From Octopus sinensis (Eukaryota): a DNA stretch of 10,982 nucleotides. Below are positions 1,645 through 10,930 of the stretch, piece after piece. Each line of letters begins with the position of its first letter. Position 1 is the stretch's first letter. Made by a program: the position numbers and the translations under genes. The notes below the pieces were generated by a model. The model searched no databases. It had not been told where the DNA came from and worked only from the letters and a program-made list of their open reading frames with translations. The stretch is taken from contig NW_021827124.1 of the NCBI RefSeq assembly GCF_006345805.1, forward strand, positions 1 through 10,982. Direction: 5' to 3'.

Positions 1645-1818
1645 CTTATGACATGCCAAACGGTTGACTTGGGGTTCCAGGTTTCAAGTCTTTCACTTTG
1701 CACAGATTTCTTTGGACTTCAACTAAGCATTTCCCAAAATTGGTTCCCCATCTCTCCTAAAACTGCTGGCCATCCAGATCCTTTTTTTCCAGCACAAAAA
1801 GCTTTCCTCTCGAAACTT

Positions 1819-2262
1819 AAGCTGGCTACACGTATGGTTCTTGGTCTCAAGCATTTGTCTTATGAAGAAAGGCTGAAGACGCTCGACCTATATTCTCTCG
1901 AAAAACGACGACGCCGTGGTGATCTCATTCTTGCTCACAACATCATAAGCGGAAAGTGTAACCTCTCGAAGGAGCTGTTCTTCACTCCTGCCCCAGAGCG
2001 TCAGCTGCGGGGTCACTCCGAAAAGCTCTATCTGCGACGATTTCATCTCAATCGAAGGAGAGGGGCTTTCTCCATCCGGGTTGGGGATCCGTGGAATAAG
2101 CTGCCGGACAAGATAGTGAAGATGCTGACGACCGCTCAGTTCAAAGTCTCTCTTGACCAGAAATGGCCTGAACTCTTTGCATGAACACCCTCCCTGTACG
2201 TAACTCCATGTCCCCCTACATGTCCTTGCTTTTGCTTTTTGAGCCAAAAAATTAATTTAACT
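1819..2262 (+). mobile_element. 5'-truncated CR1-clade LINE: ORF2 C-terminus plus 3' UTR
   Basis: KLATRMVLGLKHLSYEERLKTLDLYSLEKRRRRGDLI...RGHSEKL...FSIRV.DPWNKLP...FKVSLD is the typical CR1 ORF2 tail; stop at 2182-2184. Confidence 0.9.
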
Positions 2263-2282
2263 ATATATACACACACACATAG

Positions 2283-2585
2283 AGAGTCGGCTGTGGGGTC
2301 ACTCCGAAAAGCTCTATCTGCGACAATTTCATCTCAATCGAAGGAGAGGGGCTTTCTCCATCCGGGTTGCAGATCCGTGGAATAAGCTGCCGGACGAGAT
2401 AGTGAAGATGCCGACGACCGCTCGGTTCAAAGTATCTCTTGACCAGAAATGGCCTGAACTCTTTGCATGAACACCCTCCCTGTACATAACTCCATGAACC
2501 CCTACATGGCCTTGCTTTTTGCTTTTTGCTTTTTGAGCCAATAAAAATTGAATTAACTTAACTTAACTTAACTTAACTTAACTTA
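2283..2585 (+). mobile_element. Second, shorter CR1 3' copy with (AACTT)n tail
   Basis: Near-identical to ~1996-2250; ends in (aactt)n at ~2555-2585. Confidence 0.9.
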
Positions 2586-3810: not shown

Positions 3811-4120
3811 CTCTCTTTCTCCCTCTCTCTCTCCCTCTCCCCCTCCCTCTCTCTCTCTCTCTCCCTCTCTCTCTCTATCCCTCTCTCTCTCTATCCCCCT
3901 CTCTCTATTCCCCTCTCTATATCCCTCTCTCTCTATATATATCCCTCTCTCTCTCTCTCTCTCTCTCTATCCCTCTCTCTCTCTATCCCCGCTCTCTCTA
4001 TCCCTCTCTCTCTCCCCCTCTCTCTCTCTATCCCTCTCTCTCTCTATCCCTCTCTCCCTCTCTCTCCTCTCTCTTCCCTCCTCTCTCTCCTCTCTCTCTC
4101 TCTCTCTCCCTCTCTATCCC
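3811..4120. repeat. ~310-bp CT-rich (CTCT/CTATCC) polypyrimidine microsatellite
   Basis: Almost entirely C/T with sparse A, directly upstream of the putative ATG. Confidence 0.95.
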
Positions 4121-4252
4121 TGTCATCGTCCACTTTCTACAAAATCTGTGTCTAATGTTTCTGTGTTTTTTTTCTCTTCTTTCCTCTCTTTCATCCAAAC
4201 CTTGTGCGTTGCCCTTGCTGGAGCAGACAACCGATCCATCGCTGTGTTTAAT

Positions 4253-4615
4253 ATGTATAAGAACATCACCTCATATATCGTAATCTGTCTTTGCCTTTCA
4301 CTGTCCGAAGAAATCTCGCTGAAATCCGAACGTGGCCCTGGACACAAAGCGGAGGTCTTGCCAAGTGACTACACCAACCAACAACAACAACAAGAGCAAC
4401 AGCAACAGCAGCCAAAAGAAATGCATCTCCAGTACTGTGACCACCACCACCAACATAGGGATGTACAACAGCAGCAGCAGCAGCAGCCAAAGCAGCAGCA
4501 GCCACAACAGCAAAAGCAAAAGCGCAGCCAACCGCATTACTACTCCTCCTACCACCTTGTCACACCCCACTACCACCAACACCACCACCAACACAACCAC
4601 CACCACAACCACCAT

Positions 4616-4648
<33 letters not shown>

Positions 4649-5298
4649 CAGCAACAACAACAATTGCAAAATGACCAACTGTACAGCAATCATAATCATC
4701 ATCAGCATCATCATCATCATCATCATAATCGTCGTCTCCGTCGCCGTCGTCGTCATAAGTCGGAGCAGCAGCATCCGCAATTCCGCGAGCGCCATCTGGC
4801 GTCGTCGACGTCAGAGCATCGACCTCAACCGGTGGCGTCCGCGCCGTCATCGCCGCTATCATCACTGCCACCACCACCACCACCACCACCACCACCACCA
4901 CCAACACCGACACCGACAACAACAGCACCGTTGTCGTCATCATCACCATCGTCATCACCATCGTCATCACAGCTAAAACCACTGCCGCAGAGCAAGCACG
5001 GCCGCCCCCACCGCCAGCCACCACCACGAACCCCGCCGCCGTCGCCACCGTCCCAAAGTCCGCCGTCCCAAACTCCGCCGTCGCCATCGTTCGGGTGCCA
5101 AGGGGGGACAACGACAGAGCGACGGGGCCGAAAAGCAGAAGATCCCCGAATACATATTGGAACTGTTTGAGTATGTGAAACAAGTCGAGGGGAACCTAGT
5201 TGAGGAGTACAATCCCCTGGCTAACCTCGGAGCCGCCGACGCCACTGTTACCACGGAAACTGTTCGACCACTAATTAAAGGATTATTATCAAAAAGCC
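4253..5298 (+). CDS. Putative first coding exon of a secreted TGF-beta/BMP-superfamily ligand (signal peptide plus prodomain N-terminus), with apparent +1 frameshift between 4977 and ~5130
   Basis: ATG 4253 gives MYKNITSYIVICLCLSLSEE (signal-peptide-like), then poly-Q/H/P/S. The next frame (codons starting at positions divisible by 3) is open 4977-5298 and reads EKQKIPEYILELFEYVKQVEGNLVEEYNPLANLGAADATVTTETVRPLIKGLLSKS. This resembles prodomain P.YML.LY and (A)NTVRSF/TTETI motifs and ends at a consensus phase-1 donor C|GTAAGT. Confidence 0.6.
4378..4970 (+). repeat. Compound trinucleotide repeats (CAA/CAG/CAC/CAT/CGT/CCA/TCA)
   Basis: Successive codon-phase repeats giving poly-Q, poly-H, poly-R, poly-P and poly-S in the ATG frame. 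Confidence 0.9.
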
Positions 5299-5304
5299 GT
5301 AAGT
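5299..5304 (+). promoter_or_regulatory. 5' splice donor GTAAGT
   Basis: Perfect intronic consensus at the GC-rich to T-rich transition. Confidence 0.7.
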
Positions 5305-5392
5305 CATTTTTTTTTCATTTTTAAAGTTTCAGGTGAGAAACTAATTGAAAAACCTCGTTAATTCCTCGAGCAGGGAATAATTTACCTGTGAT

Positions 5393-6310
5393 GTTTGTTG
5401 TTGTTGTTGTTGTTGTTGTTTTAGCCCCAGGTCTGACCTGATCCAGCAGACCTATGATCAAAGACGTTCCAGCTGGGACCATTTTGTCTTTTATTCAGGC
5501 ATAGTGTATCAAGGACTACATTATCTAATGTGCCTGTTCTTGTTGTGTAGTCCTAGGTCAGTCCAGATCCAGTATACTTATGAGGAAAGATCTTCCAGTC
5601 ATGACCATCCTGTCTTTTTTTCAGCCATAGTTCATTTAAGACTACATTATCTCATACATCCTTGTCTGTTGTTGTTTAGCCACAGGTCAGTCCTGATCCA
5701 ACACACTTATGGCCAAAGACGTTCCGGCTGTGACCATCCTGTCTTTTATTATTCATGCATTGTGTATCTAGGAGTACATTATCTAATGTGTCCTTCCTTG
5801 TTGTTGTTTAGCCACAGGTCAGTCCTAGTCCAGTAGACCTATGATCAAAGATATTCCAGTTGTGACCATCCTGTCTTTTATTATTCATGCATAGTGTATC
5901 TAGGAGTACTTTATCTAATGTGTCCTTCCTTGTTGTTGTTTAGCCACAGGTCAGTCCTAGTCCAGTGGACCTATGATCAAAGATATTCCAGCTGTGACCA
6001 TCCTGTCTTTTATTATTCATGAATCGTGTATCTAGGAGTACATTATCTAATGTGTCCTTCCTTGTTGTTGTTTAGCCACAGGTCAGTCTTGATCCAGCAG
6101 ACCTATGATCAAAGATATTCCAACCATGACCATCCTGTCTTTTATCCTAGCATAGTGTATCTAAGACTGCATTATCCAATATGTTCATCCCTTATCAAAC
6201 GAATTCAGATCTAATTAACTATCATTCAAAGACACTCCATCTATGGCCATTCTTACTGCTCTTCAGACCTAAGTTTACCTCGGACTACACATTCTAAAGT
6301 GTCTTTCCTA
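5393..6310. repeat. Tandem array of 126-132-bp units (6 clear plus 1 degenerate), each led by (TTG)n
   Basis: tagcc(a/c)cagg-type anchors at 5422, 5548, 5677, 5809, 5941 and 6073; degenerate unit at ~6220-6310. Confidence 0.9.
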
Positions 6311-9900: not shown

Positions 9901-10500
9901 AATAATAATAATAATATATCTCTATCTATCCGCTCAGTTGAAGTCGACGCTCAGTCACTCGATGGATCAGTGTCCTCCAGTCAATTCTATCCTGGGCCGC
10001 TTCTTTCAGACTGGCTATGTCCATTCCGGTATCACTCTTGATGGTGTCAAGCCAGCTGGGTTCTTGGTCGGCCTCTTCCTCTCTTGCCACTGACCATTCT
10101 GAGCATGATGTCCTTCTCCAGGGATTTTCTCCTCATAATATGACCGAAATATGCCAATCTATGCTTGGTGATCCTAGCTTCTAGCGACATTTTCGGCCTG
10201 ATCTGCTTAAGAACTTCTCCATTGGTTGGCCTCTTCCTCTCTTGCCACTGACCATTCCGAGCATGATGTCCTTCTCCAGGGATTTTCTCAGCATAATATG
10301 ACCAAAATATGCCAATCTATGCATGGTGATCCCAGCTTCTAGCGACATTTTCGGCCTTATCTGCTTAAGAACTTCTCCATTGGTGAGCCTTGCTGTCCAT
10401 GGAATCCGTAAAAGTCTTCTCCAACACCAAAGCTCGAATGCATTAATTCTCTTCTGGTCAGCTTTCTTTAGTGTCCAGGTTTTGCATCCATACACTAGCA
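9901..10500 (-). mobile_element. 5'-truncated RTE-BovB-like LINE with a 158-bp internal tandem duplication
   Basis: YGCKTWTLKKADQKRINAFELWCWRRLLRIPWTAR...LAYFGHIM..SLEKDIMLG.VSGKRGRG...WLDTI...RVTERRLQLSG*, stop at 9926-9928; simple-repeat tail. Confidence 0.92.
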
Positions 10501-10513
10501 AAAACAAAAACTT

Positions 10514-10930
10514 ATACTCTTTTACTTGTTTCAGTCATGTGACTGTGGCCATGCTGGAGCACCGCCTTTAGTTGAGCAAATCGACCCCAGGACTAATTTT
10601 TTGTAAGCCTAGTACTTATTCTATCAGTCCCTTTTTGCCTAACCACTAAGTTATGGGGTCTGGGAAGCCAGAAGCCTGCACCATGCTCCAGTCTGATCTG
10701 GCAGTGTTTCTACGGCTGGATGCCCTTCCTAACGCGTAAGCCCAGTACTTATTCTATCGGTCTCTTTTGCCGAACCGCTAAGTAACGAGGACATAAACAC
10801 ACCAGCATTGGTTGTCAAGCGATGCTAGGGGACAAACACAGACACACAAACACACACACGCATATATATATATATACATATATATACAACGGGCTTCTTT
10901 CAGTTTCCGTCTACCCAATCCACTCACAAG
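10514..10930 (-). mobile_element. SINE family A, 5'-truncated, chimeric with an RTE 3' UTR fragment (~10655-10735)
   Basis: Family A tail from 10514; the insert ggggtctgggaagccagaag...ttcctaacgc matches 2834-2913; family A resumes with a duplicated segment. Confidence 0.85.

What the first reader, a model, noticed from the sequence alone, without database searches (positions are those of the whole stretch)
4253..5298. Hidden TGF-beta/BMP-like prodomain exon, split across two reading frames
Seen: the 340-aa track ORF carries the signal-peptide-like start but stops at 5170. The protein-like segment IPEYILELFEY...ATVTTETVRPL lies in the +1 frame (open 4977-5298, no ATG) and ends at a phase-1 GTAAGT donor. 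Established: BMP2/4 (VP.YMLDLY...ANTVRSF) and myostatin (ATTETII) have a phase-1 intron shortly after this motif. Inference: a divergent ligand likely to be missed or mis-modelled by annotation. The mature cystine-knot exon is not in this window.
Basis: partly seen in the sequence, partly recalled or inferred. Interest (0 to 1): 0.75.

Follow-up and report, generated by a model that had tools for sequence, protein, structure and literature searches.

The report
Octopus BMP-like exon broken by assembly
This octopus stretch is likely the first coding exon of a divergent BMP/TGF-beta growth-factor precursor; it looks split over two reading frames only because the genome assembly carries one extra base that independent sequencing runs lack, and no database protein that we searched contains it.

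Summary
The two-frame split is an assembly error. Contigs of 3 of 3 DNA runs that cover the site (three studies) lack one base at 5017/5018. Without it, ATG 4253 reads open for 348 codons to the phase-1 GT donor at 5299. The window is a whole 11-kb orphan contig. No homologue or Pfam hit was found, and no splice junction was seen. TGF-beta identity therefore rests on layout and a weak motif. A two-motif-plus-donor score puts the exon beside a true octopus ligand exon; none of 1,702 other sampled donors reach it. A ligand census found 11 host genes. Nine have their own first exon; two do not: C1252 (interchain Cys absent, databases hold only its last exon) and C10067 (activin-like). Two residues shared only with C1252's sister gene favour C1252. 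Odds: TGF-beta exon about 0.68, C1252 partner about 0.4. It is an annotation fix and a lead to two odd cephalopod ligands, not new biology in itself.

The parts
4224..4226 (+). Possible splice acceptor (CAG) 26 nt before the ATG; would imply an upstream exon
   Evidence: similar acceptors lie 11-32 nt before the ATG in the octopus BMP2/4, BMP3, Nodal and BMP5-8 first exons; pyrimidine tract modest (9 of 15); inferred
4253..4312 (+). Start codon and predicted signal peptide (hydrophobic core residues 9-17)
   Evidence: no signal-peptide predictor was available
4373..4732 (+). Gln/His-rich low-complexity tract (38 Q, 37 H in residues 41-160)
4730..4756 (+). Arg tract with R-x-x-R motifs, possible furin-type sites
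   Evidence: cleavage inferred
4835..4990 (+). Pro/Ser/Thr-rich tract
5017..5018 (.). One extra base in the assembly: the cause of the apparent frameshift
   Evidence: left out in the contigs of X1, X3 and X4 (three studies)
5019..5110 (+). Arg/His/Lys-rich basic tract, in the true frame
5142..5174 (+). alpha2-like prodomain motif (IPEYILELFEY)
   Evidence: helix H37-62 in a single-sequence model, mean pLDDT 73
5253..5273 (+). beta1-like motif (TETVRPL), degenerate
   Evidence: 3.0 bits; not aligned by the HMM; modelled as helix when folded alone
5299..5304 (+). Phase-1 splice donor GTAAGT
   Evidence: its use is not shown by any read

Best explanation
The assembly has one extra base at 5017/5018, and without it 4253-5298 is a single open 348-codon exon that likely encodes the front half of a secreted TGF-beta/BMP-family precursor, most likely the missing start of the divergent ligand whose last exon lies on contig C1252. 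Shown: the open frame, the donor, the single copy, the orphan contig. Inferred: a signal peptide sends the protein into the secretory path. A long disordered Gln/His, Pro/Ser and Arg-rich stretch stands where other ligands have alpha1 and the latency lasso. The alpha2 and beta1 elements splice in phase 1 to an unfound middle exon and then to the C1252 exon. Furin-type cleavage at that exon's RKSKR/KRRRR sites would release a cystine-knot ligand without the interchain cysteine. It would act as a non-covalent homo- or heterodimer that tunes BMP/Nodal signalling, and the basic tracts may hold the pro-complex on matrix glycans. Odds: family about 0.68; C1252 as partner about 0.4 overall.
For: Indel; frame and phase. 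Both ends single-copy in G000. The layout matches this genome's ligand first exons, which have long low-complexity inserts and end at phase-1 donors. The BMP3 and BMP10-like exons also show no alpha1 motif. The two-motif-plus-donor score ranks 8th of 127 candidates in 824 kb at 16.7 bits, next to the C12425 ligand's true exon at 17.7; six true exons take ranks 1-5 and 7. Only 5 of 1,707 sampled open-frame phase-1 donors reach 16.7, all true ligand exons, and 16 of 5,110 protein-derived ends do. The HMM score exceeds 2,000 of 2,000 shuffles. Census: 9 of 11 host ligand genes have their own first exon. C1252 is held only as a 248/249-aa last-exon model in two octopus species. C1252 is sister to C12425 (92/82). 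A Tyr two places after the alpha2 aromatic residue (5 of 87 ligands) and a Glu before beta1 (6 of 87) occur only in the C12425 lineage, and the window exon has both.
Against: No homologue in 5.8 billion proteins of 126-2000 aa. Among 1.84 billion representatives the single hit, P0009, is a repeat-protein artefact. No PDB prodomain hit at E<=10. HMM score 9 bits, rank 11 of 8,589 ORFs, below a repeat-derived peptide; only alpha2 aligns. hhalign probability 8%; BLAST to P0011 covers 11 residues. Chance hits reach 18.9 (a pattern-selected site), 15.2 and 14.7 bits. The composite score was designed after seeing the sequence and trained mostly on ADMP-type proteins, and the 87-ligand set has the same bias. 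No alpha1 or lasso. beta1 ends in PL, not SF, and lies 9 residues from the donor rather than 4-5. No middle exon was found, nor any contig overlap. The C1252-C12425 join is flagged as a meeting of long branches.
Confidence: 0.68

Rival explanations
1. It is a TGF-beta first exon, but of the activin/inhibin-like ligand on contig C10067 (or of a ligand missing from the assembly). It would splice directly in phase 1 to the arm-plus-mature exon, giving a two-exon precursor with low-complexity inserts in both halves. This counts within the 0.68 for the family.
For: C10067 has a phase-1 acceptor and no first exon in the 9.3 kb up to its contig start. It has the beta8 CxxC typical of activins (PMC7017013 section 26), and its best PDB hits are inhibin-beta chains at E 0.017-0.045. 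It carries similar Gln/His/Asn inserts.
Against: [quoted passage not shown] The scallop motif that by eye resembles the C10067 arm is preceded by an acidic DYY...EVISF stretch that the window lacks (judged by eye). Activin-type first exons usually keep alpha1, as the C10041 exon does.
Confidence: 0.22
2. It is the first coding exon of an unrelated, fast-evolving secreted or membrane protein, and the P-x-Y-x-x-x-L-F helix resembles alpha2 by chance.
For: No homologue or family hit. Match limited to about 10 residues. Alpha1 absent. Octopus has many secreted proteins with such repeats (general knowledge).
Against: The score at an exon end is reached by 0 of 1,702 non-ligand donors and about 0.3% of protein-derived ends. 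The genome has two ligands that lack exactly such an exon.
Confidence: 0.29
3. The frameshift is real (pseudogene, null allele or recoding), or the stretch is non-coding repeat DNA.
For: The assembly shows it. Most of the ORF is trinucleotide repeat, which stays open easily. Transcription is not shown.
Against: 3 of 3 covering runs lack the base. The same kind of frame change sits in the BMP3 first exon and the C10067 exon of this assembly. Two of the three in-exon substitutions seen in runs are synonymous in the inferred frame (weak).
Confidence: 0.03

Closest known systems
Octopus 'BMP 2-A-like' ligand P0011 (contig C12425; orthologues P0131, P0132, P0057)
   Same: Signal, low-complexity spacer, P-[DE]-Y-x-x-x-L-[YF]-x-Y alpha2 and E-x-[IV]-R beta1, phase-1 donor; nearly the same composite score
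   Different: Its first exon is 125 codons against 348; no overall alignable similarity
Octopus 'BMP 8B-like' / 'protein 60A' P0016 and P0130 (contig C1252)
   Same: Proposed partner; database models hold only the last exon, without signal peptide or alpha2
   Different: No physical or transcript link shown; middle exon not found
BMP9/BMP10 prodomains (PDB 6SF2, 4YCG, 7POI) and the octopus BMP3 and BMP10-like first exons
   Same: alpha2 PPEYMLELY of BMP10 is close to IPEYILELF; the octopus BMP3 exon has the same layout and the same kind of assembly frameshift
   Different: Both octopus genes have their own first exons; human prodomains keep alpha1; the window peptide does not hit them directly
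Activin/inhibin-beta and myostatin prodomains
   Different: No alpha1, no acidic DDYHA-type stretch, no PDB hit

Membership tests
TGF-beta superfamily precursor | N-terminal signal peptide | tested here: met
   Hydrophobic core residues 9-17, mean 3.2; hydropathy only, no dedicated predictor
TGF-beta superfamily precursor | Prodomain alpha1 helix and latency lasso (conserved I/L/V and Pro; PMC7017013 sections 24, 26) | tested here: not met
   No alpha1 motif in the window; also not seen in the octopus BMP3 and BMP10-like exons
TGF-beta superfamily precursor | alpha2 motif with a pair of F/Y residues (P-x-Y-x-x-x-L-Y/F) | tested here: met
   13.7 bits by PSSM, against 15.2-25.8 for six true exons; above 2,000 shuffles
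TGF-beta superfamily precursor | beta1 (T/I-V/I-R-S-F) followed by a phase-1 intron | tested here: inconclusive
   TETVRPL 3.0 bits; phase-1 donor present; splicing not observed
TGF-beta superfamily precursor | Match to Pfam PF00688 | tested here: inconclusive
   No hit at E<=10, but 3 of 4 true octopus exons also miss it and the fourth scores E 0.016
TGF-beta superfamily precursor | Same transcript carries arm domain, RxxR site and cystine knot (PF00019) | tested here: inconclusive
   The contig ends 5.7 kb after the donor; no junction in laid contigs; two orphan ligand exons exist
BMP2/4 | Is the first exon of the BMP2/4 gene | tested here: not met
   BMP2/4 on C11 has its own exon
ADMP, Nodal, BMP3, BMP10, BMP5-8, C1255 Maverick/GDF8-like ligand | Is the missing first exon of one of these | tested here: not met
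   Each has its own first exon; family names other than ADMP are my assignments from recalled motifs

The most novel reading that the evidence does not exclude
The exon completes an undescribed cephalopod growth factor. It would be one of a Nodal/BMP-derived sister pair without the dimer disulfide, whose prodomain has swapped the conserved alpha1/lasso for about 290 residues of Gln/His, Pro and Arg tracts. Or it is the front of the C10067 activin-like ligand, whose cystine knot is interrupted by roughly 260 residues of repeats. Either would be a TGF-beta ligand rebuilt by microsatellite expansion and hidden from gene catalogues by assembly breaks.
Probability: 0.4. Interest if true: 0.55.

Novelty: new member of a known kind. 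Interest (0 to 1): 0.3.

Why it matters
Counts and models of cephalopod TGF-beta ligands rest on broken gene models. In this assembly ADMP and the C1255 ligand are split over contigs, BMP3 and C10067 carry frame changes in repeats, and C1252 is held as a last exon only in two species. Recovering this exon would give the first full model of a divergent octopus ligand and a target for expression studies in embryos. The headline feature, two reading frames, has no biological meaning.

Tried and rejected
No RNA holder listed. Of four runs laid, X6 and X7 gave no contig. X15 (RNA only by guess) gave one contig over 5137-5278 ending in 9 adapter-like letters, before the donor. X16 gave a 31-base match in the intron. 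None bears on expression or splicing. Complex prediction of the window peptide with the C10067 arm returned no verdict (score 0.00, controls not folded). The single-sequence model of the C10067 arm had pLDDT 39 and its fold search had no hit at E<=0.001. The Atlas could not read the window peptide; for P0016 it returned only TGF-beta clusters. Chance hits rejected: P0009, TolB_like and a designed repeat protein, L044 (E 1.44, not examined further), L116 and L118. Pattern search for P-x-Y-M-x-[DE]-L-[YF] gave 6 hits against 10 control hits; only BMP3 was real. C1255 was first taken as partner and dropped when its own exon was found on C10041. BMP10-like was favoured by motif and dropped when its exon was found 116 kb upstream. 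No contig-end overlap with C1252 or C10067, only dispersed repeats. Exact look-up of 8 ORFs found none. Six topical literature searches listed no paper on these octopus ligands; the library lacks most subscription papers, and one octopus genome paper was not held. One search, on assembly indel errors, listed nothing relevant. Supplementary Table S5 of PMC11202624 (TGF-beta pathway genes in gonads) was not read and may bear on expression.

Full report
Observation. The window is repeat-rich octopus-type DNA and is the entire contig G000:C3595. Proteins identical to other G000 loci are labelled Octopus in the databases. The motif segment is in the +1 frame, 4977-5324, and the first in-frame consensus donor is the phase-1 GTAAGT at 5299. 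Both ends of the exon are single-copy in G000.

The frameshift is an assembly error. Of four runs laid on 4100-5450, three had contigs spanning 4969-5385 (X1, X3, X4; three studies, two organism labels), and all three lack one base at 5017/5018. X5 did not cover the site. Without that base the exon is 1,045 nt: 348 codons plus one base, with no stop. The same kind of frame change inside a repeat is present in this assembly's BMP3 first exon and in the C10067 ligand exon; those two were not checked against reads.

Anatomy. The exon has a possible acceptor 26 nt before the ATG, a hydrophobic N-terminus, about 120 Gln/His-rich residues, an Arg tract with RxxR motifs, a Pro/Ser tract, a basic tract and about 50 ordinary residues that fold as helices when modelled alone. 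Octopus ligand first exons look like this: BMP2/4 is Ser-rich, the C10041 exon is His/Ser-rich over 335 codons, BMP3 is His/Gln/Ser-rich and BMP10-like is acidic; those checked end at phase-1 donors.

Is it TGF-beta? Direct searches are blank: Pfam, 5.8 billion proteins of 126-2000 aa, 1.84 billion representatives (one repeat artefact), PDB, exact look-up and earlier scan notes by sequence. The Pfam blank is uninformative, because 3 of 4 true octopus exons also miss PF00688. An HMM of 46 exon-1 segments, mostly ADMP-type, gives 9 bits: above 2,000 of 2,000 shuffles, but rank 11 of 8,589 ORFs and well under the 20-27 bits of true exons outside the training set. hhalign gives 8% probability over alpha2 only. 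A score that needs alpha2, then beta1, then a phase-1 donor was trained on 54 motif pairs after I left out the rows I took as cephalopod. It ranks the exon 8th of 127 candidates in 824 kb, with six true exons at ranks 1-5 and 7. Of 1,707 sampled open-frame donors, 5 reach its score, all true ligand exons; 16 of 5,110 protein-derived ends do. This test was designed after seeing the sequence, so it supports but does not prove. Alpha1 and the latency lasso, the best-conserved straitjacket parts in PMC7017013 (abstract and sections 24 and 26 read), are absent, as they appear to be in the octopus BMP3 and BMP10-like exons.

Which ligand? PF00019 gave 19 matches among 21 scored candidates: 14 belong to 11 host genes, and 5 lie on four contigs that are gene-dense or unlike the host's in the fetched stretches and likely come from a co-sequenced parasite (earlier notes e1-9845536 and e1-8842078 agree). 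This is a lower bound; scallops have 12 ligands including GDF8/11, INHA and AMH-like (PMC10763453, passages and section 6 read). Own first exons were found for BMP2/4, two BMP5-8 and Nodal, C12425, ADMP (a database model on a 32-kb contig), the C1255 ligand (on C10041, found with an apparently spliced relative), BMP3 and BMP10-like. Family names other than ADMP are my assignments from recalled motifs. Two remain: C1252, held as a 248/249-aa last-exon model in two species, and C10067, an activin-like gene with a phase-1 acceptor, a CxxC and about 1,100 nt from the first CC to the stop. C1252 groups with C12425 (92/82, long-branch warning; 25 rows, C10067 left out), and both have F/Y in place of the interchain cysteine. 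Among 87 ligands, Tyr two places after the alpha2 aromatic residue and Glu before beta1 occur only in the C12425 lineage (5 and 6 rows), and the window exon has both. With a BMP-type alpha2 this favours C1252, but the set is ADMP-heavy, no middle exon was found, and no read or overlap links the contigs.

Mechanism (inferred). A secreted precursor with a disordered, partly basic N-terminal extension, a reduced straitjacket, an arm domain from downstream exons, furin-type release and a cystine knot that cannot form the usual interchain disulfide. By analogy with ligands lacking that cysteine (GDF9, BMP15, GDF3, Lefty; recalled), it would act as a non-covalent dimer, heterodimer partner or modulator.

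Verdict. Odds: TGF-beta exon 0.68 (C1252 about 0.4, C10067 or an unassembled ligand about 0.25), unrelated secreted protein 0.29, real frameshift or non-coding 0.03. Six literature searches listed nothing on these ligands; of PMC11202624 only passages were read. Interest 0.3; new member of a known kind.

Noticed in passing
L067:1291-3330 (G000:C10067): Very divergent activin/inhibin-like ligand whose cystine knot is interrupted by roughly 260 residues of Ser/Asn/His/Gln/Thr repeats; frame change inside an AAT repeat; below Pfam's cut-off (E 0.03) and without a first exon on its contig. Six ORF guesses from it and C10041 were not all informative; none of its four tested ORFs is in the protein collection.
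   Followed up: partly
L008/L046 (C12425) and L009/L038 (C1252): Sister ligands that both lack the interchain cysteine; they fall near Nodal with weak support; the C12425 gene has an orthologue in Argonauta (P0057).
   Followed up: partly
L080:4490-5160 (C4:163.18 Mb): BMP3 first coding exon is split over two frames inside a repeat in this assembly; about 95 kb upstream of exon 2, with a 100-N gap nearby (L081).
   Followed up: partly
L093 (C4:39275761, minus strand): BMP10-like first exon lies 116 kb upstream of exon 2 and has a long acidic insert and no evident alpha1.
   Followed up: partly
L043 (C10041) and L029 (C1255); P0134 and P0136: The C1255 nine-cysteine ligand and ADMP are each split between contigs, so their database models are fragments under misleading names.
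   Followed up: yes
L006/L019 and L007/L017 (C23:27.30-27.41 Mb): Two near-identical BMP5-8 genes in converging orientation: a recent duplication or an assembly duplicate.
   Followed up: no
L114 (C12425:60881-60997): Partial second copy of the C12425 ligand's exon 2 inside the next intron (68% identity over 38 aa).
   Followed up: partly
L010, L011, L014, L016 (C8901, C9002, C8596, C8702): Short TGF-beta ligands with reduced prodomains on contigs that likely come from a co-sequenced parasite.
   Followed up: no
window 5116: All three covering runs read G where the assembly has A (Gln to Arg in the true frame): a second assembly error or an allele.
   Followed up: partly
window 1800-2490, 5410-6184, 10064-10534: LINE-like 3' fragments in a direct duplication, a six-copy 132-bp tandem array just after the donor, and a 158-bp duplicated retroelement fragment.
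   Followed up: no
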